Assembly: GCA_964566225.1 (NCBI GenBank)
Contig: CAZMHV010000004.1
Coordinates: forward strand, 248 to 64,247
Length of the DNA: 64,000 nt
Direction of reading: 5' to 3'
Source of the DNA: an uncultured Gammaproteobacteria bacterium
GTDB taxonomy: Bacteria > Patescibacteriota > Patescibacteriia > Magasanikbacterales > UBA922
Both the position numbers and the translations under genes were made by a program. The notes under the pieces were generated by a model. That model was not told the DNA's origin, did not search any database, and saw only the letters and a list, made by a program, of their open reading frames with translations. Below are positions 53,684 through 64,000 of this stretch, one piece after another (within the stretch, counting starts at the first letter, position 1; every line of letters begins with the position of its first letter).

Positions 53684-56353
53684 TTGAACTTACTTTGTAT
53701 GCAATCTGCTCGTCGACATGAAATCTTACAAGAGAGGAGTCTTTTTGTTGATGAACCCGAAAATGATAGAAGAGAAAAAGAATGGAATCCAGAAAAAACA
53801 TTTTTGATTCGTCAATTAGTGGGTGTGCTTGATCGGGTTGATGCACAAACTGGACCAGTCGGAAGAAAAATTTTACATAATTTTTCGAGAGGTCAAATTA
53901 CTCTCGAAGAATTACAGACAGAATTAGAACAGGCTCCAGATTTTGGTGATTTTTGTGAGCATGTATATGATTACCTTGAAAGAGAGGGTGTGCTTATGCG
54001 TAAAGGGGAAGATTTCTTGGTAGATATGTATCGACTTACACACAGAAAGTTTGCAGGAATTGATAATAAAAAATATGAAACAAATAGAATTAAGAAGAGT
54101 AGAAAAAATAAATTTAGTGATGAATGGCTAGAACAAAACGCAAATTTGCATCATGGTAGATTGGTAGATTTACTCCAAAATGCCTTTTTACAACAAGAAG
54201 TATATGACCTGGATGCTTATGAAGATTGGGAAAAATCTGGTGCAAATCCACAAAAAAAACCTGAAAAAAAATTTCTTTTTTACAACCCACAATCAACTAC
54301 AGAAGCCTTTGATAGAGAAACGATTCAAGGGGCTCACTTTCATATTTTACCTTCTGAAATTTTTGGCAAAAAAGCAGATCATTATTCAGATAATTTAGCT
54401 GATGCAGCTTTTGATGAAGTCACCCTCGCCTGTCTTATTTTTCATCCAAACTATGGTGATGGCAAAAGGGAATCCGGTGTGCTCTTTGTGCGTGATCATG
54501 AGACAAGAGAGTATAGAAAAATTTCTAGAGATTGGTTTGCCAAATCAGGAATGAAATTTGGAGGAGAGTTAGAAGAAGGTAATATTCGAAAGTTTCTTGC
54601 TTCTCCAAAGTTTTTTTTGGCAGAAGGTGGCTACCCTCATCTCACTGAAAAGAATCTTTTAACCGCAACAGATTTTAAGACCATGGCAGGGAGTGAATAT
54701 GCCGAGAAGTATGGAACAAGTCGGGATATTACTCAGAAAAGGGGTATGGTGATGATTGATAAAGTCCACTATACGCTTGGGGTAGAATTTGCCCCCACTT
54801 CTGAAAAGAAATATCGTCTGTATCAACTGTCAGAAATGGTTGGGGGCATTGTAGAAGTTGATCCTGAAACTGGCGAGGATATTCAAATGACCCATGTCAT
54901 TGATATGGTAGGCAAAGATGATCCTCGTCGAGCTGAAAGAAAGGTCTTGACTGCTCCGCAGACCAGTATACATATTCGAGATTTCAATACTGAAGAATCC
55001 AAAATTCTTTTTGAAAAACATCTCACAGGAGGAGAAGCTTTTGAGTTTGCCACTCTGTTGCAGCTCAAACAAAAATTGGCAAAAAAGGCGAATGTTTCTT
55101 TTGAAAGTCTCTCGCCGGGAGAACAGGCTGGGCTTTTGCTCGTCTATCGTAACTGCACTGAAGAAGAACAAAAGAAAATGGATAGTTTTTTGGAAACAAA
55201 AAAAGAAGCGGGCTTTCCTGTGCTTCTGCTTGGTCAGTATGAAAAAAATTTATTTCCTTTGCTTGAAAAGATTGATCAAAAATATTCAGTGCATGAACAG
55301 GCTGCTATTTTTGAAAAAATTGCTGACGTGATTCGTTCACTTCAAACTGTGGAAGAAAAGGTGAAAGAATTTTTTGTTGAAGAGGGAAAGGAAATAAACA
55401 CCAATGATATTTCGCAAGAAATAATGAAACGGGCGGCCAAGCTTATTGAAAAATTTGCCACTGAACCAAAAGCAACCATAAAAATAAGTGAACTGGTCAT
55501 GCGGCTTAGTAGAATCAAAGAAGACATCATGCTTTTTGCTGTTATGTTTAAAGTCGCTGTTAAAGGAGACAAGCATATTGATGTAAAGGAAGTAAAGGGC
55601 ATGGATTTGCAGCATTTAAATTTTGAAGAACTCACTGACAGCGATAAAGAACAAATGGATGAAATTATTCAAAAAAATTGGAGTGATCGAGATCTGTATG
55701 GAGAAAAGAAAATAAAAGAATTTCATGAACTCATGAAAACAGACAAAAATTCACGATACTATGTTATGCGAAAAGATGGAAAGATTACTTCGTTTATTCG
55801 TTTTAAAGATAAAGAAAAAGTGTTTGGGGAACCCATACGCAAAGAGGGTGGATACTTTAATGTCGATCCAGACTTTCGTGGTTCGGGATTTGGTGAAGCT
55901 ATGATGCTCGCTTCTATTATTAAAGAAGGTGAAACAGGTATTATTGATGCAGTGGTCCATCCGGATTTTGATATTGGTATTAGGTATGTAGAAGAAACTG
56001 GTTGTGATATTGTTGGGTTTGGACCAGATAAAGTTGGGACCATGCGTTTTATTTTGGAGTGTGACGATCAAAAAAATAAAAAATCTTTTACTCGTAACCA
56101 AACGGAAGAAGAAGTAATGAATTTTATCGTGAATGATTCTGTTGAAAACCAAATACGGCAACAAAAAAAAGTAATTGGTATAAACTTCAACCCAAAATCT
56201 CGTGAAGATGGAGAAAAGATAAAACTTTTGGCAAGAGAGGGTTACCGAGGAACCAGATATTTTAATAATCCGAATGGAAAAGGGAGAATTATTGTTTTTG
56301 AGTTAGACGAACAAAAAAGGATGGATATTATACAATCGAAGATTGCGAGGTAG
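53684..56353 (+). CDS. 889-aa protein of unknown function with C-terminal GNAT-like acetyltransferase domain
   Basis: C-terminal RGSGFGEAMM (acetyl-CoA-binding Q/RxxGxG/A motif). The rest is unrecognised. Confidence 0.55.
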   Translation: MNLLCMQSARRHEILQERSLFVDEPENDRREKEWNPEKTFLIRQLVGVLDRVDAQTGPVGRKILHNFSRGQITLEELQTELEQAPDFGDFCEHVYDYLEREGVLMRKGEDFLVDMYRLTHRKFAGIDNKKYETNRIKKSRKNKFSDEWLEQNANLHHGRLVDLLQNAFLQQEVYDLDAYEDWEKSGANPQKKPEKKFLFYNPQSTTEAFDRETIQGAHFHILPSEIFGKKADHYSDNLADAAFDEVTLACLIFHPNYGDGKRESGVLFVRDHETREYRKISRDWFAKSGMKFGGELEEGNIRKFLASPKFFLAEGGYPHLTEKNLLTATDFKTMAGSEYAEKYGTSRDITQKRGMVMIDKVHYTLGVEFAPTSEKKYRLYQLSEMVGGIVEVDPETGEDIQMTHVIDMVGKDDPRRAERKVLTAPQTSIHIRDFNTEESKILFEKHLTGGEAFEFATLLQLKQKLAKKANVSFESLSPGEQAGLLLVYRNCTEEEQKKMDSFLETKKEAGFPVLLLGQYEKNLFPLLEKIDQKYSVHEQAAIFEKIADVIRSLQTVEEKVKEFFVEEGKEINTNDISQEIMKRAAKLIEKFATEPKATIKISELVMRLSRIKEDIMLFAVMFKVAVKGDKHIDVKEVKGMDLQHLNFEELTDSDKEQMDEIIQKNWSDRDLYGEKKIKEFHELMKTDKNSRYYVMRKDGKITSFIRFKDKEKVFGEPIRKEGGYFNVDPDFRGSGFGEAMMLASIIKEGETGIIDAVVHPDFDIGIRYVEETGCDIVGFGPDKVGTMRFILECDDQKNKKSFTRNQTEEEVMNFIVNDSVENQIRQQKKVIGINFNPKSREDGEKIKLLAREGYRGTRYFNNPNGKGRIIVFELDEQKRMDIIQSKIAR

Positions 56354-57134
56354 AATTTGGTTTTATATTTGAAGGGGCAATACCCGCATTCCAGATAAAT
56401 TCGAAAATATTTTTAAACATGCCAGCAATTTCTGGATTCATGATTTCAAAACCAATCTGTTCTTTTTCAGTGAGAGTAAAGAAAAGGATACTGTTGTCAA
56501 ATATTTGAATATTGGTTTTAAATGGTGAAAAATCTTTGGGCAAGAATTTGACGTCAGTTGATGTAATATCATTTTTAGCATATCGCTCCAATGCTTTTGG
56601 TGTTTCTACCACAAGCATTTTTTTTACAATATTTTTTTCTTTTCGTTTTTTGACATATTCCGTGTTCAAGTCTCCTGCAAATTCCAAAATAGGATCAATA
56701 GTCATAAAAGTATAAATACAGTTTTTGGCTTCGAGTGAGGTAAATAAGGCATCTTTGATACCGTCTAATCCTTCGTAGTATTTGACGCCTGGTTTGTTTA
56801 TACCGAGGTTGTATATCCCAGCCAGTGACTGCACCATATTTTTGAACTCACCCTCGAGAAGCGACACCTCACGTTTTTTTTCTTCCATGAGGGTAAAGAG
56901 CTTAGTTGGGTGATTTGGCTTGTAGTAGGCTACGCGGCCTTCTTTGCGGTATTCCACAAAGCCTTCTGCAAGGAGGGTGGGGAGGGCTTCGTACACTGTG
57001 GCGCGAGAGAGGGGAACCTTTTCAAGGAGCCTCGGCACGGTCATTTCTCCGTTTTCCACCAGGGTGAGGTAAATCTCGGCAGTGGTGGGTTCCATGCCGG
57101 TTTTGAGGAGGGTTTCGTGGAGGGTGGTGTTCAT
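56328..57134 (-). CDS. TrmB-family transcriptional regulator
   Basis: N-terminal winged HTH (TVPRLLEKVPLSRATVYEALPTLLAEGFVE) and TrmB-like C-domain. Operator-like palindromes lie upstream. Confidence 0.65.
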   Translation of the reverse strand: MNTTLHETLLKTGMEPTTAEIYLTLVENGEMTVPRLLEKVPLSRATVYEALPTLLAEGFVEYRKEGRVAYYKPNHPTKLFTLMEEKKREVSLLEGEFKNMVQSLAGIYNLGINKPGVKYYEGLDGIKDALFTSLEAKNCIYTFMTIDPILEFAGDLNTEYVKKRKEKNIVKKMLVVETPKALERYAKNDITSTDVKFLPKDFSPFKTNIQIFDNSILFFTLTEKEQIGFEIMNPEIAGMFKNIFEFIWNAGIAPSNIKPNSTSQSSIV

Positions 57135-57369
57135 AGGGGTAGGGGAGACTTCCTTTTGAGGAGGTTTTTTTGTTTTAATTTAGCCAAATTTTGAACTTTG
57201 ACCAATAAAGAGTTTAGCTGCCAAAAACACGTTTTTTCTCTTATTCTAGCATTATTATACCATATCTGCTTTAATCTGTCAAGTATTTACTAGACAGATT
57301 ATTTTGACTACTATTTATTATATTTTAGCCAAATTTGGTATAACATATAAACCAAAGTCTGGCATAGTA

Positions 57370-57398
57370 TTGACAAATTCGGCAAAACCTGGTATACT
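57370..57398 (+). promoter_or_regulatory. near-consensus sigma-70 promoter TTGACA-N17-(TGG)TATACT
   Basis: Read directly: TTGACAAATTCGGCAAAACCTGGTATACT. Divergent from the TrmB-like gene. Confidence 0.55.
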
Positions 57399-57404
57399 AG
57401 CTTG

Positions 57405-57545
57405 TTACGATGAAAGACCGAGAAGAAGAACGAACCGAGTAACACCTTACAACTGAACCAAAGTAGCCCCAAAGGAAGGAGAGAGCCTACGGGGAGCAAG
57501 CCAAGCAACAGCCTGGTAAGCAACTACTCTATATATAGATATAGA
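57405..57545 (+). ncRNA. candidate ~170-nt small RNA or riboswitch-like leader (unclassified)
   Basis: Bounded by the strong promoter at 57370 and the terminator at 57546-57575. No ORF apart from a 10-codon leaderless frame. Internal repeats ACCGAG x2 and GTTAC/GTAAC pairing. Confidence 0.3.
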
Positions 57546-57575
57546 AACCACTCTCTCCACAGGGTGGTTTTTTTC
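57546..57575 (+). terminator. intrinsic terminator
   Basis: AACCAC-TCTCTCCACAGG-GTGGTT followed by T7. Confidence 0.55.
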
Positions 57576-58187
57576 GCAAAGACGAATCCGCCTTGGGCGG
57601 ACATCACTTAGGGCGCTGGAGCTCTTGATCAAAAGTACTCACTTTCAATGCTTGTGTGAGGAAGGATCAAGACCCAAGCGGCCTACATGATTCCCACTGC
57701 TCAAATAATACTTGGTTTGCTCTCTGGAGAGATGAGCGAAGCAGGGTGAGAACAGAGGTTGAGTCCAAAAGCCATTACAATGAAATAATTTCTTTGACCC
57801 ATATGAAAAATAGGAGAGAGAATCCTATCGGTGAAAGAAATTTTCAATTCTGAACCCTCTGTGAGACTGAAACATGTCGTAACAGAGAATTTGCTCGAAG
57901 GTTACACTTTGAGAACCTACGGAGGTCGATAGATGCCCTTGACGAAAGTCGAGCAGCAACTCCCTCGCGGCAGGTCTACTACTCGCCTCAGAACGAGAAG
58001 TAGTACCGAGTGCGTCCCGCCTTCATGGATCTGTCAAAAGATTGATGGAGGCAGGGATACTCTGTATTACAGAGAGATCTTTAGAAAAAAACAAGGCGAT
58101 GAGGAAAGGCATTTTGATTATCACGAGAGTGGTGAGAAGAATGCCTTTCCCCGCGCCTGGCAAGCGTAGTCAACAAATGGAGATTGT

Positions 58188-58823
58188 GTGGATACCACCA
58201 AGCCGGATTTCGGCACACTCAACACCCTCAGCGCGTTCGACCACAACACCGTCGGCACCAAGGTGACCGACCCCCGCAAGTTCTACAAGTTTCTGACGGT
58301 CGCGGTTGCCACCCACGACACCTCGAAGGACAAGGCGACTGGCCAGCACTTCCTGATCCTGCCGAAGGAAGCCTTCAGCACCGTCACGGCGGGAGTCGGA
58401 CGTCGGAGCAAGGAACCCAGGGACTACGTGCCGCGCCTTCACCGGGACACCGTCGAGCTCTACCTCAAGCGTGATTTCGCGGCCGCCGTGGAGAGTCTGT
58501 CCGTCGTGGTGTACACGCGGCAGGCCTACCTGGCGGATCCGGACATCAATCCGGACAAGGTGGCCGAGCGCTTCCCCGGCAACGAGGAGAAGCTCGCGGA
58601 CGCCATCAAAGAGACGAAGCGGATTGAAGGATCATCCTTCACCCACATCGTCGTCGCCGTTCTGGCATCCGCAGGCCCACGTGCTCCGTTGTCGCCCATT
58701 CGGTTGGTGAACAACCTCGCCGGTGGCAACAACGAGGTCAACGAGTGGAGCAAGGAGGACATCGTCATGAAGGCGCAGCTGACCAAGGCCTACTACGATG
58801 AGTGGTGCACGGTCGCGGACTGA
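58188..58823 (+). CDS. hypothetical protein A of the GC-rich module (211 aa)
   Basis: GTG start 5 nt after GGAG. Third codon positions almost all G/C. No family recognised. Confidence 0.6.
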   Translation: MDTTKPDFGTLNTLSAFDHNTVGTKVTDPRKFYKFLTVAVATHDTSKDKATGQHFLILPKEAFSTVTAGVGRRSKEPRDYVPRLHRDTVELYLKRDFAAAVESLSVVVYTRQAYLADPDINPDKVAERFPGNEEKLADAIKETKRIEGSSFTHIVVAVLASAGPRAPLSPIRLVNNLAGGNNEVNEWSKEDIVMKAQLTKAYYDEWCTVAD

Positions 58824-59557
58824 TCTCGGCGACGCGGTGCCAAACAAAGAAACCCGGTAGCATCCCACTCACAGACCGACAAGGTCTGGGACAAGCTACC
58901 ACTCAACGGTTTCACTCAGCACAAAATCCAGTGCTGAAATAAATGTTATGAGTCACCTGCATGTTCCAAAAGAACAAAGTGGTGAGCCAAGAGGAAGCAG
59001 TATCCTCCACGGCGAGAAGCCAAACGCACCGGTCGGCGAGAGAGAAGCACTCACTCGCCAACCCTGCAGAAATTTCAATTCGTTGAAGTTTGTGAAGGGG
59101 AGAAAATAGTAACAACTGAAGTTTTTCTTCAAAAGTGGAGAAAAGAACAGTCGCTACTACAACAAGAAAGTCCAGAATACAAAAGTAACTTTGGTCTCAC
59201 AAGAGCAAAGTGAAAAATTGGATGAAGGATGTTACAGCAGCATAATGCATGTGGTGTAGAGAGTGAAGATCATTACAACTGAATATTGCCAAAGTGAAGA
59301 AGAATGTTATTTTCTTTGGCAAGCGCAGGTTTACCAAAACGTGCGTATTGAAAATTGCTTGTCGCTCTGCTGTCTTTACTCAAGGGCAGTGAATGCGATA
59401 AGCAACTCCGGGAAGATAATGTCTTCGACCCGGAGTCCCGACAATCCTCCTCCTGTGAACCGGCGGCACGAGTGCCAATGGAGCAGGCGTCCAGAGGTGG
59501 ACGAAAAATGGAGGCTCCCCCGAGGGTTCGTGGGGAGAGAAGTGGAGAATTTCGACA

Positions 59558-60400
59558 ATGAAGAACGGGCTCAACCCCCAGCGTGGTTCTTTTTCCTGCC
59601 ACCCCGCCATCAGCGCGACGGTCAACTTCCCCCTCACCCTGAACATGGCCAACGCCTTCGTGCCCCAGGTCACCGAGTTCTTCCAGAACTGCGGGGACCT
59701 GCGCGGCTTCAGCAGCTACGGCCTCCCGGGCCAGGGCGTCGCGGCCATCCTGACCCTCCCGGTGCTGGAGATGGCGTGCGGGTTCCCCGTCACGCCGATC
59801 TACGACATCGGGCAGAAGAAGGTGGTCGGCGGGCTCAACCTGGGCGAGTTCCGTCACAGCGTGGTCCGCCCCCGCCGCGCCGAGCTGACCCGCACCGAGG
59901 CCTACGCCGGATACACCGTCATCGACGGCGCCGGTCGGGGTCTGACCCCGCTCCAGCGCGAGGAGCTCGAGGGCATCCTCAGCTCCACGGACATCCGGGT
60001 CGTCGCCGCACCCACGGGCCAGATGGACTTCGGCGACCCCACGAAGGGGATCGTCGAGACCCTCCTGGCCACGGGGCTGAGCTTCGACGACTGGACCTCC
60101 GGCCGCGTCGTGTACCTGCCCCCGGGAATGGGGCTGGCCGCGGTCGTCCAGGCAACGGCGATCTACGGTCTCTCCGAGGCCTGGCCCCGTACCCTGCGCC
60201 TCAACAAGCGCGAGGCCGATGGCCAGTTCCACCTCGACGAGATCGTCGACCCCCAGGCCCTCCGGCAGTTCGGGGTCAGCCTGGCGGCGGCCTGGCGCGA
60301 CGCGGAGCCGACGGTCACGCTCAGCGGCGCGGTCTCTGAGGACTTCCGCCGGCTCCTCACCGAGCTGGCCGAGGCCCACGGCGTCACGATCCGCGGCTGA
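59558..60400 (+). CDS. hypothetical protein B of the GC-rich module (280 aa; alternative start at 59645)
   Basis: Very high GC3 in this frame only, GGAG 10 nt upstream. The overlapping 358-aa and 384-aa ORFs are Arg/Pro/Gly-rich shadow frames. Confidence 0.6.
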   Translation: MKNGLNPQRGSFSCHPAISATVNFPLTLNMANAFVPQVTEFFQNCGDLRGFSSYGLPGQGVAAILTLPVLEMACGFPVTPIYDIGQKKVVGGLNLGEFRHSVVRPRRAELTRTEAYAGYTVIDGAGRGLTPLQREELEGILSSTDIRVVAAPTGQMDFGDPTKGIVETLLATGLSFDDWTSGRVVYLPPGMGLAAVVQATAIYGLSEAWPRTLRLNKREADGQFHLDEIVDPQALRQFGVSLAAAWRDAEPTVTLSGAVSEDFRRLLTELAEAHGVTIRG

Positions 60401-60657
60401 CGCGACGTTCCGCGTCGCTCTCCTCACGAGTAGCGTGTGAGTGAGAGGTCAACATCCTACCAAACCGCTACATTCTCGCCCAGTTCTGGGCAAATCCAAC
60501 AACAATGCACGAGGTCAGTGGGAAGCAAGCACAACGCTTCCCACCCTCAAATAAGTTCTCCAAACAAGTTTGGATGGAGGGCTTTGAGAGGAAAAGTCGT
60601 TCCGTAAAAACACCGGAACGCCTGGGCGCTCACCCAGTCCCGACAAACGGAGGAAAT

Positions 60658-61206
60658 GTGAGCAAGCGAATCGGTGATCGGGTTTTTTCCCTTCAGTTCA
60701 TGATCATCTTCGGTATTCTAATCGGAATCCTGTCCGCGTTGTTCGACTGGTGGAGCTGGATCGAGCCCATCACTGGGGTCGCGACCCTCGCCCTCTCCGC
60801 CGCCGCATGGTGGCAGACGAGACGGGCGAAGGAAGCGTACTACCAGGTGTCCGACAACCACGACGGCAACTGGATCGTCGCGCTGGAAGTCGGCCGCCCC
60901 ATCAGCGAGGCGGTCAAGGATCGTTTCGGCAGTCTGGATGTTCTCGTCCGTGTTCAGGATGTGATTGGAACCTCGGTTCTTCTCACGGAAGATCACTACG
61001 AGAAGGTGGCGCGTGCGGTTTACTCCGCGTGTGCTCTCTGCCAGAACAAGCCGATCGACTTGATCGTTTCAGGCCCGAACGGGCTGGTTTTCATCGTTGG
61101 ACAGATGCTGGGCATGGATCGCTTCCGCGTCCAGGTCTGGCAGTACTACAACGGCGAATACCAGCTAATCCCGCGACCGACGCGGGACTGGCTCGAGCAC
61201 CGCTGA
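60658..61206 (+). CDS. 2-TM membrane protein with ~115-aa C-terminal alpha/beta domain (candidate membrane effector/sensor)
   Basis: GTG start 4 nt after GGAGG. Basic N-terminus, TM1 FMIIFGILIGILSALF, TM2 ITGVATLALSAAAWW, then a domain with DLIVSGPNGLVFIVGQMLG and RVQVWQYYNGEYQLIP. Confidence 0.55.
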   Translation: MSKRIGDRVFSLQFMIIFGILIGILSALFDWWSWIEPITGVATLALSAAAWWQTRRAKEAYYQVSDNHDGNWIVALEVGRPISEAVKDRFGSLDVLVRVQDVIGTSVLLTEDHYEKVARAVYSACALCQNKPIDLIVSGPNGLVFIVGQMLGMDRFRVQVWQYYNGEYQLIPRPTRDWLEHR

Positions 61207-61484
61207 CCCTCTCAAATGTCCCGACTCCACACATGTCGGGAAAGTCCAGAGATCCTTCTTTGGGCGACACTCGGTAGTTCGCGATCAGCACTCACGATCG
61301 CAGCTCCCACGAGATTTTTATTTGTAAAAGTTTCATGGGAGAAAATAAAAACAATGGGTGGCTGGCAGCGCCCAAAATTTTTTTCTTTGTATCTGCCAGA
61401 AATTTTTTGGAAACCATTGCCATAAAGCCCCACGAGCAAATGCTCGACGGAAGTGTGGGGAACAAACGGCAGTGGTGGAGGAAA

Positions 61485-61853
61485 ATGACGAAATCGATTT
61501 TCGTTGTTGACCACCCCTTTCAGCAGGTCAAGGTGATGACGGTCAACGAGGACGGAGAAATCTGTTCCTCGACCGGTGATCACCTCTATGACCTGTCGGA
61601 AGACGGGGACGAGGTCAGCACGTCCATCGACTACGCGAGGGCTTTTCCTCACGTGGCGTTTTACGAGCGCAAGCTCGATGATGCCAGTGGGGACAAGCCG
61701 TTCTTCAGTCTGAGCCAAGAGCGAGCGCAAAGCTTTGTCGATTTCAAGCAGGCGTGCCTGCGAGAGATCAACGACGCTGGCCTCGATGACACTGCTGCCG
61801 CAATCAAGCGGCAGAACGTCATCGACGCCCTGCGCACGCGCTTCGGCTTCTGA
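61485..61853 (+). CDS. hypothetical acidic protein D (122 aa)
   Basis: ATG 4 nt after GGAGG. The upstream part of track ORF 61335..61853 is AT-rich and probably non-coding. Confidence 0.45.
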   Translation: MTKSIFVVDHPFQQVKVMTVNEDGEICSSTGDHLYDLSEDGDEVSTSIDYARAFPHVAFYERKLDDASGDKPFFSLSQERAQSFVDFKQACLREINDAGLDDTAAAIKRQNVIDALRTRFGF

Positions 61854-62301
61854 AGAGCGCGTAGTCGTATCCTCCCCTAGGTCTTGAGCAGATGAGGGGG
61901 AGTGAAAAAGAAAGCGGACCGGCAACGCGCCGACTGAGTGGGGAGAAAGATCTCACTTTGAGCTGCCAGCAACCGTGCAGCAAGACCGCAAGCTTAGGTT
62001 GGTAACCTCAACAACCAAAACTCGGGATTTGGCGATGTGCACACGTCGCCACCCAACACAAGCCCAGCAAAAATTTTTTTGAGGAGAGCACGATGAAACT
62101 CTCTCCTCGGAGTGCATGAAGATTTTCTTTGAAAATTTTTAGCTCCTTGAACGGATAATTGCTGTGCTGCTGTTGGGTGAAACGATTTTTATTTGAGAGA
62201 GAAATAAAAATTGAACCTAAATTCGTGTTATACGAAGTGTTCTTTGTAATTCATCTCGTGCTCTCTCCACCCAGAGAGTTTTTTTGTTTCAGACAAAAAA
62301 A

Positions 62302-62352
62302 CTTCTGCCGCTTTGAAAACATTTTTAGGAGTGTTTGATGAAGCGGCAGAAG
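62302..62352 (+). promoter_or_regulatory. 10-bp perfect inverted repeat CTTCTGCCGC...GCGGCAGAAG sequestering the RBS and start of a 13-codon upstream ORF (62338-62379) that ends 12 nt before gene E
   Basis: AGGAGTG-N4-ATG lies inside the loop. The mini-ORF MKRQKFLNTNNFL stops just before GGAGG-N6-GTG of the 62392 gene. Confidence 0.35.
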
Positions 62353-62391
62353 TTTCTGAACACCAACAACTTTCTATGACGGAGGTGAAAC

Positions 62392-62904
62392 GTGGGAAAT
62401 CAGCCCACCAAAATCCTCGGCCGCTTGCGAAGCGGCGAGGTCGTGCAGGATCGGGCGCAGTCCCACCTGCACGCGGGAGTCATCGAGCTGCTCCCGGAAG
62501 TGCTCAGCTCGACCGATTCGCGCGGCAAGGCGAATTTCGTCCGTGAGTTCCGGTTCAATCGCGTGGTTGGTATCAACAACCGCGTGAAGACCGGAGCGAA
62601 CGACGAGATCGTCTTCGCCCAGCGCGTGGGGCGCACCGGGCTGTCGCGGTTCGTGAAGAATCGCCAGCCCGAGCCGACCCGGTATGTGACCGTCGTCCTC
62701 AACCGCCGCGCGAGTGGCGTGTATGAGGTGTTGACGGCCTACATCGGTTCGGCCGCCCCGCGCGAGCCATGGGATCCTCGCGCGGATCGAGAAGTCTCTG
62801 CACGGTTCTGGGCCTCCGAAGCGCTGCTTTGGGGCTCTGAGCCGGTCGTCGATGGAACTGAAACAACGAACATGCCGGATTCGTTCCGGCTCGAAGGAGT
62901 GTGA
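62392..62904 (+). CDS. hypothetical protein E (170 aa), immediately upstream of and nearly abutting the AAA+ ATPase gene
   Basis: GTG start after GGAGG, high GC3, stop 3 nt before the ATPase ATG. No family recognised. Confidence 0.55.
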   Translation: MGNQPTKILGRLRSGEVVQDRAQSHLHAGVIELLPEVLSSTDSRGKANFVREFRFNRVVGINNRVKTGANDEIVFAQRVGRTGLSRFVKNRQPEPTRYVTVVLNRRASGVYEVLTAYIGSAAPREPWDPRADREVSARFWASEALLWGSEPVVDGTETTNMPDSFRLEGV

Positions 62905-62907
62905 GAC

Positions 62908-64000
62908 ATGGCCGACCAGGCCACCCTGAAGCGGGCCATGGCACTCAAGCCCAAGATTGAGGCCAACACCAACGTCGTCCTGCGCGAGTTCATCAAGCGG
63001 GACGACATCGTGCGGGCAGTCTGGCTCGCGCTCCTCTCCGACTCCGCCGCGTTCTTCCTGGGCCCGCCGGGCGTCGCCAAGACCGCCACGGTGCAGCGCC
63101 TCGCGCGCGAGATCACCGGGTGCGTGTTCTTCGAGGCCCTGATGCCGGCCATCGTTTCGGCGGATCAGCTCTTCGTGGAGTCCACCTCCATCGAGGAGCA
63201 CCCGACGGACGACGGTGGCAAGGCCATCGCGGTCAAGAACAAGCTGGGGCGGGCCACCAAGGCGCACGTCTTCTTCGCCGACGAGGTGTGGAAGACCGAG
63301 CCGATGGTGCTCCAGCCCCTGCTCGACCTGGCCCGGGCCGACGGAGTCCGTCACGATGGGTCGTTCCATGCGACCCCGATCATGGCCTTCCTCGCCGCGT
63401 CGAACGAGCTGCCCGAAGAGGGGAGCAAGCTCGGCGCGATGTGGAGCCGGATGATCATTCGCGTGGACGTTCGGGGTCTCGACCGCTCCGGCCGCAAGGC
63501 CATGGTCGCCTCGCGTCTCCGTCAGGAACGCAAGGAGCCCGTGCCCCAGGCCACGACGAACGACCGCCTCAGCGTGGAGGACTTGAAACTCCTCCAGCAG
63601 GCGCGGCCGCACGTGGAGCTCCCCGACGAGATCATCGAGATCGTTCTCGACCTGATCGAGGAGTTGACGAAGCAGGACGAGGCTGGATTCGGTTGGCTCC
63701 GCGAGGACGACCGCCGGTTCGGATTCATCTGCGACGTCCTGCAGTCGGCTGCCCTGCTGGCCGGTCGCTCGGTCGTCACCAAGGCCGACCTCGCCGCGCT
63801 GGAGTGGATGATGTGGAATGAGCCGAGCCAGATCCCCGCGATCAAGGCCGTACTCGCCCCCCTCATTCGGACGCCGGCCGGCGAGGCACAGGAGATGGTC
63901 GACGCCCTCATGGCGCCGGATGGCGTAGTGGATGGCTTCCTGCAGAACAAGCACGAGAAGTCCACCGACGCCCTCCGGCAATGCCGGGAAACCATGGCGG
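62908..64000 (+). CDS. RavA/MoxR-family AAA+ ATPase, 3'-truncated by window end
   Basis: Own translation: ...FFLGPPGVAKTATVQRLAREI (MoxR-type Walker A GxPGxAK[ST], cf. RavA LLGPPGIAKS) and Walker B HVFFADEVWK. Open to the window end, hence absent from the ORF track. Confidence 0.75.
   Translation, partial: MADQATLKRAMALKPKIEANTNVVLREFIKRDDIVRAVWLALLSDSAAFFLGPPGVAKTATVQRLAREITGCVFFEALMPAIVSADQLFVESTSIEEHPTDDGGKAIAVKNKLGRATKAHVFFADEVWKTEPMVLQPLLDLARADGVRHDGSFHATPIMAFLAASNELPEEGSKLGAMWSRMIIRVDVRGLDRSGRKAMVASRLRQERKEPVPQATTNDRLSVEDLKLLQQARPHVELPDEIIEIVLDLIEELTKQDEAGFGWLREDDRRFGFICDVLQSAALLAGRSVVTKADLAALEWMMWNEPSQIPAIKAVLAPLIRTPAGEAQEMVDALMAPDGVVDGFLQNKHEKSTDALRQCRETMA

What the first reader, a model, noticed from the sequence alone, without database searches (positions are those of the whole stretch)
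60658..61206. 2-TM protein with glycine-rich Rossmann-like C-terminal domain inside the GC-rich module
Topology is a positive N-terminus, two TM helices, then about 115 aa containing DLIVSGPNGLVFIVGQMLG and an aromatic-rich C-terminus (VWQYYNGEYQLIP). This resembles in outline small membrane-tethered nucleotide-sensing effectors of the SLOG, SAVED or CARF type fused to 2-TM modules. I cannot assign the fold from sequence alone.
Basis: inference. Interest (0 to 1): 0.55.

Follow-up and report, generated by a model that had tools for sequence, protein, structure and literature searches.

The report
Membrane-anchored half-SAVED nucleotide sensor
The gene encodes a small membrane protein whose cytoplasmic end is one half of a SAVED cyclic-nucleotide sensor, paired with a signal-degrading or signal-binding protein but with no signal-making enzyme in sight, in a bacterial group (CPR) that mostly lacks CRISPR.

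Summary
Window 60658-61206 (+) is a real 182-aa gene: GGAGG 4 nt before a GTG start, GC3 0.77, about 90 homologue clusters. It has a positive N-terminus, a two-helix membrane hairpin and a C-terminal alpha/beta domain of about 110 aa.

The domain is SAVED: Pfam PF18145 scores 30.1 bits against a 26.2 cut-off, and PADLOC SAVED4 gives E=1.9e-18. The best fold matches are 3TM-SAVED, Cap4 and CalpL.

It is only one of the two CARF-like lobes of a normal SAVED, so it must pair or stack with other copies to form a ligand pocket.

The upstream gene (59558-60400) is a stand-alone two-lobed SAVED-like protein that passes NCBI's Csx15 cut-off. In relatives from CPR metagenomes this partner is replaced by Csx20-, Csx16- or Csx3-like genes. 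All four are cyclic tetra-adenylate (cA4) ring-nuclease or sponge families.

Most likely this is a cA4-type-gated membrane effector with an off-switch. No Cas10, CD-NTase or CRISPR array is in the window or in the related loci.

It is a new variant of a known kind (TM-SAVED effectors) and is moderately interesting.

The parts
60658..61206 (+). Gene for the 182-aa 2TM / single-lobe SAVED protein (GTG start, TGA stop)
   Evidence: ORF. GGAGG at 60649-60653. GC3 0.77. Pfam SAVED above cut-off. PADLOC SAVED4. 18 close homologues.
60682..60813 (+). Membrane hairpin: TM1 (aa about 9-31), short acidic/aromatic loop with the conserved W...EP motif, and TM2 (aa about 33-52)
   Evidence: Hydropathy. AlphaFold2 helices 12-29 and 32-61. 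W32, P37 and T43 are invariant in the family. Weak NCBIfam SLATT_1 hit for aa 8-63: E=6.9e-4, 19.6 bits against a 41-bit cut-off.
60862..61173 (+). Single CARF-like lobe of SAVED4 type (aa about 69-172), with the invariant motifs ALEVGRPxSEA, SGPxxL and Q(Y/F)...Y...P
   Evidence: Pfam aa 55-168 against profile positions 59-184 of 190. NCBIfam SAVED aa 69-169 against 147-254 of 261. The family profile matches each of the two lobes of CalpL (7qda 427-485, and weakly 294-353) and of AcrIII-2 (9r8s). Foldseek matches.
61174..61203 (+). C-terminal tail RPTRDWLEHR, the most conserved stretch of the protein
   Evidence: Mean column identity 0.92. The pattern P-x-[TD]-R-[DES]-W-L recurs at the C-terminus of distant relatives. 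It is poorly ordered in the monomer model, with pLDDT below 50 at aa 177-182.
59558..60400 (+). Upstream partner gene: 280-aa soluble stand-alone SAVED-like protein whose C-terminal lobe is a Csx15 domain. Predicted cA4 ring nuclease or sponge.
   Evidence: NCBIfam CAS_Csx15 scores 38 bits against a 35-bit cut-off, aa 129-237. PADLOC Csx15 E=3.5e-6. AlphaFold2 pLDDT 94.6. The top 13 Foldseek matches are two-lobed SAVED domains aligned over about 250 columns, E about 1e-2. GC3 0.94.
61355..61384 (+). Terminator-like hairpin plus T-run about 150 nt after the SAVED stop. Probable end of the Csx15-like/SAVED transcription unit.
   Evidence: This is a consensus match only.
56328..57134 (-). TrmB-family regulator transcribed divergently from the island. 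It is a syntenic neighbour of the module in 17 related loci and a possible regulator of it.
   Evidence: Pfam TrmB E=4.9e-12. Neighbourhood tables. A perfect sigma-70-type promoter at 57282..57254 is overlapped by a palindrome at 57272-57301.
62392..64000 (+). Downstream conflict-system genes in the same island: a 170-aa ORF (phrog_23674) and a bpMoxR AAA+ ATPase that is cut by the window end. Whether they are linked to the SAVED gene or merely adjacent is not known.
   Evidence: Pfam bpMoxR E=6.7e-22. PHROG hits. Related loci continue with a VWA protein and a 500-800-aa protein.

Best explanation
The gene encodes a small inner-membrane receptor-effector for a cyclic oligonucleotide, most likely cyclic tetra-adenylate (cA4).

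**Shown**
- It has a two-helix membrane hairpin and a cytoplasmic domain.
- That domain is a single lobe of the SAVED4 type, the type found in the cA4 sensor CalpL.
- It sits in an operon-like arrangement behind a soluble Csx15-type protein.

**Inferred mechanism**
- One lobe cannot form the two-fold ligand pocket of CARF or SAVED, so two or more copies must share the ligand.
- They would do so either as a CARF-like dimer or by head-to-tail stacking, as in CalpL, AcrIII-2, Csx15, Cap4 and 3TM-SAVED filaments.
- Ligand-driven clustering would bring the membrane hairpins together. The conserved W...EP motif suggests they then open a pore or ion channel, or otherwise disturb the membrane.
- The result would be growth arrest or death of the infected cell.
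- The upstream Csx15-like protein would degrade or sequester the ligand, setting the threshold and resetting the system.

**Missing step**
The enzyme that makes the signal is not encoded nearby. It must lie elsewhere in the genome or be of an unknown kind.
For: **SAVED identity**
- sequence profiles; model and fold search; PDB sequence search.

**Single lobe**
- The soluble part is about 110 aa.
- It aligns to profile positions 147-254 of 261 of NCBIfam SAVED.
- Its profile hits both lobes of CalpL and of AcrIII-2 separately.

**Ligand**
- CalpL's SAVED4 domain binds cA4.
- The neighbour in the window passes the curated Csx15 cut-off.
- Across about 27 assessable related contexts, the neighbour is:
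  - Csx15-like in 5;
  - Csx20-like in 8 (PADLOC E about 1e-5, aligned over the full length);
  - Csx16-like in 1-2 (E=7.7e-9);
  - Csx3/Crn3-like in 4 (E down to 7e-17).
- All characterised members of these families bind or degrade cA4.
- Swapping of unrelated families with one shared function next to a constant gene argues that the constant gene responds to that ligand.

**Effector role**
- The loop and TM2 are more conserved than a mere anchor needs: mean identity 0.67, with W32, P37 and T43 invariant.
- The TM part gives a weak hit to the SLATT pore-forming module.
- Precedents are Cap14, a 2',3'-cGAMP-gated chloride channel, and the 3TM-SAVED filament, PDB 9wq3.

**Topology**
- The predicted topology puts the sensor domain in the cytoplasm.
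Against: - No Cas10, CD-NTase, mCpol or CRISPR array was found in the 64-kb window or in the flanks of about 40 related loci. CPR bacteria rarely have CRISPR.
- The fold matches are weak in E-value (7.9e-3), and NCBIfam SAVED is below its cut-off (27.5 against 33 bits).
- TM2 is only weakly hydrophobic in this copy.
- Relatives without TM helices exist, some in contexts that look like mobile elements. That would also fit a sponge or anti-defence role.
- SAVED4 domains can themselves be ring nucleases.
- Ligand, oligomerisation and membrane effect are all inferred; nothing was measured.
- Multimer modelling could not be run.
Confidence: 0.55

Rival explanations
1. It is a membrane-anchored ring nuclease or sponge. 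The single-lobe SAVED dimerises, binds and degrades or sequesters cA4 or another cyclic oligonucleotide. The TM hairpin only localises it. It would damp signalling rather than kill the cell, either as a housekeeping brake or as an anti-defence gene carried by a mobile island.
For: - CalpL's SAVED4 domain and the viral stand-alone SAVED AcrIII-2 are ring nucleases that sandwich cA4 between protomers.
- Soluble relatives of 105-145 aa exist. One sits in a resolvase-containing run of small same-strand ORFs that looks like a mobile element.
- The best match in the viral structure library is a 123-aa protein of an archaeal virus.
- The island has foreign base composition, and its MoxR genes hit phage families.
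- The invariant C-terminal R/D/W/H/R tail could be catalytic.
Against: - The gene is almost always paired with a separate ring-nuclease-type gene. Only about 4% of type III loci that have a ring nuclease carry more than one, so two quenchers side by side would be unusual.
- The TM hairpin carries invariant residues.
- CPR genomes seldom have a CRISPR system to quench.
Confidence: 0.17
2. It senses a different nucleotide-derived signal that belongs to its other recurrent neighbours. Candidates are a product of the tightly coupled radical SAM enzyme found in 16 related loci, or a signal of the MoxR-VWA conflict system. It would be the membrane output or regulator of that system.
For: - A radical SAM gene abuts or overlaps the SAVED gene in many loci. 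It has weak similarity to nucleotide-acting members: NrdG2 E=1e-13, viperin E=1e-7, MoaA E=1e-6, and PADLOC pVip E=3.3e-8.
- bpMoxR, a VWA protein and a large protein follow the SAVED gene in the window and in L001, L012, L023 and L038.
Against: - The window itself has no radical SAM gene.
- All radical SAM hits are far below their curated cut-offs.
- The MoxR module is absent from most related loci.
- The swapping of four cA4 ring-nuclease families points to cA4.
- Conflict systems commonly cluster without working together.
Confidence: 0.15
3. It is a lineage-specific housekeeping membrane protein of CPR bacteria with a Rossmann-like domain unrelated to immune signalling. It would be conserved next to TrmB because of shared regulation.
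For: It occupies the same syntenic site, next to a TrmB-family regulator, in 17 related loci from several CPR lineages.
Against: - It is rare: 91 clusters among 1.84 billion representative proteins.
- It sits in an island of deviant base composition and variable content.
- Its specific profile and fold matches are to SAVED.
- Its neighbours belong to CRISPR-associated ring-nuclease families.
Confidence: 0.05

Closest known systems
Cap14 (Saf-2TM + SAVED), CBASS effector; 2',3'-cGAMP-gated chloride channel (PMC10402079)
   Same: N-terminal TM module, C-terminal cytoplasmic SAVED sensor and no enzymatic domain. The output is a change in membrane permeability.
   Different: - Cap14 has a full two-lobed SAVED and three predicted TM helices, and is encoded next to its CD-NTase.
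- Here there is one lobe and two helices, no cyclase, and a ring-nuclease-type partner instead.
- Homology of the two TM modules was not tested.
3TM-SAVED filament bound to 2'3'-cGAMP (PDB 9wq3)
   Same: It is the best structural match of the model: E=7.9e-3, probability 1.0, 110-120 aligned columns. It is a membrane-tethered SAVED that forms ligand-bound filaments.
   Different: The target is 337-339 aa and only about a third of it aligns. No paper on it was found in the library.
CalpL (SAVED4-Lon protease) of type III CRISPR
   Same: It shares the SAVED4 sequence type: PADLOC SAVED4 and a family-profile hit to 7qda residues 427-485. CalpL binds cA4, forms filaments and acts as a ring nuclease.
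   Different: CalpL is soluble, has two lobes plus a Lon protease, and lies in type III CRISPR loci.
PADLOC family 'SAVED4--SAVED_TM' (catalogued bioinformatically)
   Same: The match is E=3.5e-14 and covers aa 23-179, including TM2 and the whole lobe.
   Different: The profile has about 120 additional N-terminal positions that are absent here. No experimental work on this family was found.
AcrIII-2, viral stand-alone SAVED ring nuclease (PMC12751052; PDB 9r8s)
   Same: It is a SAVED4-derived protein without an effector domain that shares cA4 between protomers. Its two lobes each match the family profile. It is also among the structural matches of the upstream 280-aa protein.
   Different: It is soluble, two-lobed and viral.
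Csx15 (PMC13148439): small dimeric CARF-superfamily protein that binds cA4 between stacked dimers
   Same: It shows how a small single-lobe unit builds a shared cA4 site by dimerising and stacking. It is also the family of the partner gene in the window.
   Different: It has no TM segment and is a different sequence family. The profile-profile comparison of A1 with A2 was not significant.
Cam1 (CARF fused to a TM domain), a type III CRISPR effector that depolarises the membrane
   Same: A cA4 sensor on a TM helix with no enzymatic domain. This comparison rests on my own knowledge and was not checked here. CARF-TM effectors are described in general terms.
   Different: It has a CARF domain, not SAVED, and lies in type III loci.

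Membership tests
SAVED domain (Pfam PF18145 / NCBIfam NF033611) | Match to the family profile above the curated cut-off | tested here: met
   Pfam scores 30.1 bits against a 26.2 cut-off, E=4.8e-7. NCBIfam scores 27.5 bits against 33, so it is below that model's cut-off. PADLOC SAVED4--SAVED gives E=1.9e-18. All 18 close homologues carry PF18145.
SAVED domain (Pfam PF18145 / NCBIfam NF033611) | CARF-like Rossmann-type alpha/beta fold | tested here: met
   The AlphaFold2 model has alternating strands and helices at aa 72-170, with pLDDT 84-89 in the core. The best PDB matches are SAVED and CARF proteins, but with E only 8e-3 to 0.3.
SAVED domain (Pfam PF18145 / NCBIfam NF033611) | Two CARF-like lobes fused in one chain (pseudo-dimer) | tested here: not met
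   Only about 110 aa follow the TM hairpin. They align to the second half of the NCBIfam model, positions 147-254 of 261. The family profile hits each lobe of CalpL and of AcrIII-2 separately. CalpL's two-lobe architecture is described.
SAVED domain (Pfam PF18145 / NCBIfam NF033611) | Binds a cyclic oligo- or dinucleotide | not testable with these tools
   Inferred only, from homology and from the ring-nuclease neighbours.
CBASS TM-SAVED effectors (Cap14 type) | Encoded next to a CD-NTase (SMODS) cyclase | tested here: not met
   No CD-NTase hit came from Pfam, PADLOC or NCBIfam for any island ORF, for 10 unassigned window ORFs, or among neighbours in related loci.
CBASS TM-SAVED effectors (Cap14 type) | N-terminal TM module followed by a C-terminal SAVED | tested here: met
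   Homology of the TM module to Saf-2TM was not tested. There is only a weak SLATT_1 hit.
Type III CRISPR ancillary effectors (SAVED4 with TM) | Match to the catalogued SAVED4--SAVED_TM profile | tested here: met
   E=3.5e-14, aa 23-179 against profile positions 122-275 of 278. The N-terminal 120 positions of the profile are absent here.
Type III CRISPR ancillary effectors (SAVED4 with TM) | Located in or beside a type III cas locus (Cas10, CRISPR array) | tested here: not met
   There is no repeat array in the window and no cas hits. The rest of the window reads as housekeeping genes (read by eye). The remainder of the genome could not be examined.
Type III CRISPR ancillary effectors (SAVED4 with TM) | Co-occurrence with a cA4 ring nuclease | tested here: met
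   Csx15 is in the window, above its curated cut-off. Csx20-, Csx16- and Csx3-like genes occur in related loci, mostly below the curated cut-offs.
Ring nucleases (rival reading) | Catalytic degradation of cA4 | not testable with these tools
   Conserved R, D, H and S residues exist, but no catalytic assignment can be made.

The most novel reading that the evidence does not exclude
CPR bacteria, which largely lack CRISPR-Cas, may keep a widespread cA4-type receiver module (single-lobe TM-SAVED plus an interchangeable ring nuclease) that works without Cas10 or a CD-NTase. The signal would then come from an unrecognised synthase, possibly the tightly linked radical SAM enzyme or another island gene. 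Alternatively it could come from outside the cell's own immune system, from a phage or from the host bacterium on which the epibiont lives. Under this reading the single-lobe SAVED would also be a living intermediate between dimeric CARF and fused two-lobed SAVED.
Probability: 0.2. Interest if true: 0.8.

Novelty: new variant of a known kind. Interest (0 to 1): 0.55.

Why it matters
TM-fused SAVED and CARF proteins are a large predicted class of immune effectors, but few have been studied. This family has four features of interest:
- It is about the smallest version conceivable, at 182 aa with one lobe. That makes it a convenient model for how ligand-driven assembly is turned into a membrane effect.
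- It suggests how SAVED could have arisen from, or reverted to, a dimerising CARF-like unit.
- The ligand can be predicted from the neighbours, because four unrelated cA4 ring-nuclease families replace one another beside it.
- It occurs without any visible signal synthase in Patescibacteria, a group described as essentially devoid of CRISPR-Cas. This raises a testable question about where the signal comes from.

A precedent exists: a SAVED effector that works alone on a housekeeping second messenger has just been reported.

Tried and rejected
- **Longer ATG start at 60505.** Rejected on GC3, the ribosome-binding site and the N-termini of homologues.
- **Signal synthase among island ORFs.** Pfam, PADLOC, NCBIfam, PHROGs and PDB-sequence searches of 58188-58823, 61335-61853 and 62392-62904 found no synthase. 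The only hit of any kind was phrog_23674, of unknown function, for 62392-62904.
- **Defence genes elsewhere in the window.** PADLOC found none in 10 unassigned ORFs.
- **The 889-aa protein upstream of TrmB.** Only a GNAT domain was found.
- **The 430-480-aa protein that follows DEAH helicases in related loci.** I read the alignment for nucleotidyltransferase motifs and saw none.
- **The VWA protein and the 777-aa protein of L038.** No informative match.
- **Internal duplication in the 280-aa partner.** Not significant by sequence, although the model looks two-lobed.
- **Relationship between the SAVED family and its partner family.** Not significant.
- **The 98-aa neighbour family (L014, L016-L019) as Csx3.** Only hhalign E=1.4e-3 and no PDB hit, so it is left unassigned.
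- **The 139-aa family of L015 and L031.** Unassigned.
- **Rfam.** No family in the window at gathering score. In the island (57100-62400) only two chance microRNA hits far below gathering score.
- **Cultured phages and plasmids.** No phage relative, and one chance-level plasmid hit: 24% of the query, E=7e-3.
- **Contexts of distant relatives.** L041-L045 showed no cas genes.

Full report
**1. The observation**

Window 60658-61206 (+) is an open reading frame of 182 codons.
- Its GTG start is preceded by GGAGG at 60649-60653.
- Third-position GC is 0.77. It is 0.44 in the overlapping +-strand frame and 0.53 in the 153 nt between the mechanical ATG at 60505 and the GTG.
- Homologues start at the GTG position.

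Hydropathy gives a strong first helix (aa about 9-31) and a weaker, Ala/Gly/Ser-rich second one (aa about 33-52) that is clearly hydrophobic in relatives. AlphaFold2 models a helical hairpin, 12-29 and 32-61. The N-terminus and the stretch after TM2 are basic and the loop is acidic. By the positive-inside rule the C-terminal domain is therefore cytoplasmic.

The hydrophobic stretch around SGPNGLVFIVGQMLG is a buried helix of the sensor fold. The same stretch misled TMHMM for CalpL. No dedicated TM predictor could be run.

**2. What the C-terminal domain is**

- Pfam SAVED (PF18145) matches above its gathering score: 30.1 against 26.2 bits.
- PADLOC models derived from the CARF/SAVED classification give SAVED4--SAVED E=1.9e-18 and SAVED4--SAVED_TM E=3.5e-14.
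- NCBIfam SAVED matches below its cut-off, at 27.5 against 33 bits.
- An AlphaFold2 model built on 18 family members (mean pLDDT 77.6, pTM 0.56; 84-89 in the core of the domain) has alternating strands and helices.
- Its best PDB matches are a 3TM-SAVED filament with 2',3'-cGAMP (9wq3), Cap4 and CalpL, followed by CARF proteins (Cad1, Sis0811, Can2, Card1). The E-values are weak, 8e-3 and upward.

The domain is only about 110 aa. It aligns to the second half of the NCBIfam SAVED model. The family profile hits both lobes of CalpL (residues 427-485 significantly, 294-353 weakly) and both lobes of the viral SAVED AcrIII-2. [quoted passage not shown] The protein here therefore carries one such lobe, and a defining feature of SAVED, two fused lobes, is not met.

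**3. The family**

- 18 close homologues (48-100% identity) are all metagenomic and unnamed.
- A full HMM scan of 1.84 billion representative proteins gives only 91 clusters.
- These include 2TM forms, forms with one N-terminal helix and soluble forms of 105-145 aa.
- Where the organism is named, members come from Patescibacteria (CPR): Uhrbacteria, Magasanikbacteria, Saccharibacteria and Moranbacteria MAGs.
- Cultured phages hold no relative, and plasmids give only one chance-level hit.
- The most conserved parts are the C-terminal tail RPTRDWLEHR (0.92 mean identity), the lobe (0.74) and the loop plus TM2 (0.67, with W32, P37 and T43 invariant).
- The tail pattern recurs at the C-terminus of distant members.

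**4. Context in the window**

Positions 1-57 kb are about 40% GC. Read by eye from the translations, they encode housekeeping genes: ThrRS, MiaA, MiaB, pyrD/E/F, GatB, Tmk, ThyA, DHFR, Dut, L1, L11, GyrA, GyrB, FtsW and S1. The closest DNA-level relative is a Magasanikibacteriota MAG.

From about 58.1 kb onward the genes have GC3 of 0.68-0.94, against 0.27-0.44 in the flank. The island holds, in order:
- an unassigned 211-aa ORF;
- the 280-aa gene at 59558-60400;
- the SAVED gene;
- a terminator-like site at 61355-61384;
- an unassigned ORF;
- a 170-aa ORF matching phrog_23674;
- a bpMoxR AAA+ ATPase that is cut by the window end.

The 280-aa protein passes NCBI's curated cut-off for Csx15 (38 against 35 bits, aa 129-237). 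It models with pLDDT 94.6. Over about 250 columns it resembles whole two-lobed SAVED domains (Cap5, Cap4, SAVED-CHAT, AcrIII-2), again with weak E-values of about 1e-2.

Csx15 is a CARF-superfamily protein that binds cA4 between stacked dimers and either sponges or slowly cleaves it.

**5. Context in relatives**

I collected 40 related loci carrying the SAVED gene, about 30 distinct contexts, and clustered their ORFs. The constant neighbour is a small protein of a cA4 ring-nuclease or sponge family, but the family changes:

| Neighbour family | Contexts | Evidence |
|---|---|---|
| Csx15-like | 5 | |
| Csx20-like | 8 | PADLOC E about 1e-5, full length; NCBIfam 20-23 bits, below cut-off |
| Csx16-like | 1, plus 1 weak | E=7.7e-9 |
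| Csx3/Crn3-like | 4 | E down to 7e-17 |

- Two further small families next to the gene remain unassigned.
- All characterised members of the four families act on cA4.
- Other frequent neighbours are a tightly coupled radical SAM gene (16 loci), a DEAH helicase (6 loci) and the MoxR-VWA genes (5 contexts).
- None of these other neighbours is universal, and the window lacks the radical SAM gene.
- A TrmB-family regulator lies divergently upstream in 17 loci.
- No Cas10, CD-NTase, mCpol or CRISPR array was found in the window or in any locus.
- CPR bacteria are reported to be largely devoid of CRISPR-Cas.

**6. Mechanism**

*Shown:* a 2TM hairpin, a cytoplasmic single SAVED4-type lobe, and pairing with interchangeable cA4-handling proteins.

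*Inferred:*
- The ligand is cA4 or something close to it.
- The pocket is formed between lobes of different chains, as in CARF dimers and in the head-to-tail stacks of CalpL, AcrIII-2 and Csx15.
- Assembly clusters the hairpins and makes the membrane leaky, as shown for Cap14 and proposed for TM-SAVED proteins generally.
- The partner removes the ligand.

I put this at 0.55. The rivals are:
- a membrane-anchored ring nuclease or sponge (0.17);
- a sensor for a product of the radical SAM or MoxR systems (0.15);
- a housekeeping protein (0.05).

The missing synthase is the main gap. Either it lies elsewhere in the genome, or it is unknown, or the receptor uses a signal not made by a dedicated immune cyclase. 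A SAVED effector that works alone on cyclic di-AMP has been reported.

**7. Comparison and novelty**

The protein works like Cap14, 3TM-SAVED or Cam1-type effectors. By sequence it belongs with the SAVED4 group, and a TM-fused SAVED4 profile already exists in PADLOC. It is therefore not a new kind.

It differs from the known examples in four ways:
- it has one lobe;
- it is minimal in size;
- it lacks a linked synthase;
- it is restricted to CPR bacteria, in a compositionally deviant island at a syntenic site.

I rate it a new variant of a known kind, with interest 0.55.

Noticed in passing
window 57135-57600: Divergent promoter region between TrmB and the island. It contains a perfect TTGACA-17-TATAAT promoter for TrmB (57282..57254, - strand) overlapped by a 14-nt palindrome (57272-57301), and a + strand TTGACA-17-TATACT promoter (57370-57398). 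About 170 nt downstream lies an intrinsic terminator (about 57546-57577). The promoters and the first part of the transcript are conserved in L016 (nhmmer E=4.7e-21) and partly in L001. Folding gives z=-2.4. There is no Rfam match. This is a candidate small RNA or leader.
   Followed up: partly
window 58100-64000; also L001, L008, L015, L016, L018, L019, L021, L026, L034, L038: A GC-rich island (GC3 0.68-0.94 against 0.27-0.44 in the flanks) lies at the same syntenic site next to TrmB in many CPR genomes. It is 8-20 GC points above its flanks in nearly all of them, with sharp edges where both ends are visible, as in L038. Two high-GC contigs (L004, L040) each carry one of the island genes, and L040 also has the same large-protein/TrmB/Csx15-like gene order, so high-GC genomes could be donors. 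Why the composition persists is unexplained.
   Followed up: partly
window 62392-64000: A 170-aa ORF (phrog_23674, E=3.8e-23) is followed 3 nt later by a bpMoxR AAA+ ATPase (PF20030 E=6.7e-22; phrog_19600). Related loci continue with a VWA protein and a 500-800-aa zinc-ribbon protein with no other match. This looks like a MoxR-VWA conflict system with an unrecognised third component.
   Followed up: partly
window 62299-62355: A perfect 15-nt inverted repeat (AAACTTCTGCCGCTT / AAGCGGCAGAAGTTT, 27-nt loop) lies just upstream of the 62392 ORF. It causes the spurious microRNA hits in Rfam.
   Followed up: no
window 61335-61853: The mechanical 172-aa ORF contains a terminator-like site at 61355-61384 in its first 50 nt. 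GC3 rises to 0.74 from 61497. The real gene probably starts at the ATG near 61488 and encodes about 120 aa of unknown function.
   Followed up: partly
window 53684-56353 and 56328-57134: An 889-aa protein, whose only recognised domain is a C-terminal GNAT, converges on TrmB and overlaps it by 26 nt. This pair is conserved in at least 9 related loci although the large protein is only 13-23% identical between them.
   Followed up: partly
L014, L016, L017 (two copies), L018, L019: A 98-aa family lies next to the SAVED gene. Its C-terminal motif is LTGPMAVWAYLVVFH..H.F..V.YNDGRG, which looks Csx3-like by eye. hhalign against the Csx3-like set gives only E=1.4e-3, and there is no PDB sequence hit.
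   Followed up: partly
L007, L008, L013, L015, L017-L019, L029, L031, L037: A radical SAM gene of 260-345 aa abuts or overlaps the SAVED gene, sometimes upstream and sometimes downstream. It has only generic similarity to NrdG-, viperin- and MoaA-type enzymes. Its role is unknown, and it is absent from the window.
   Followed up: partly
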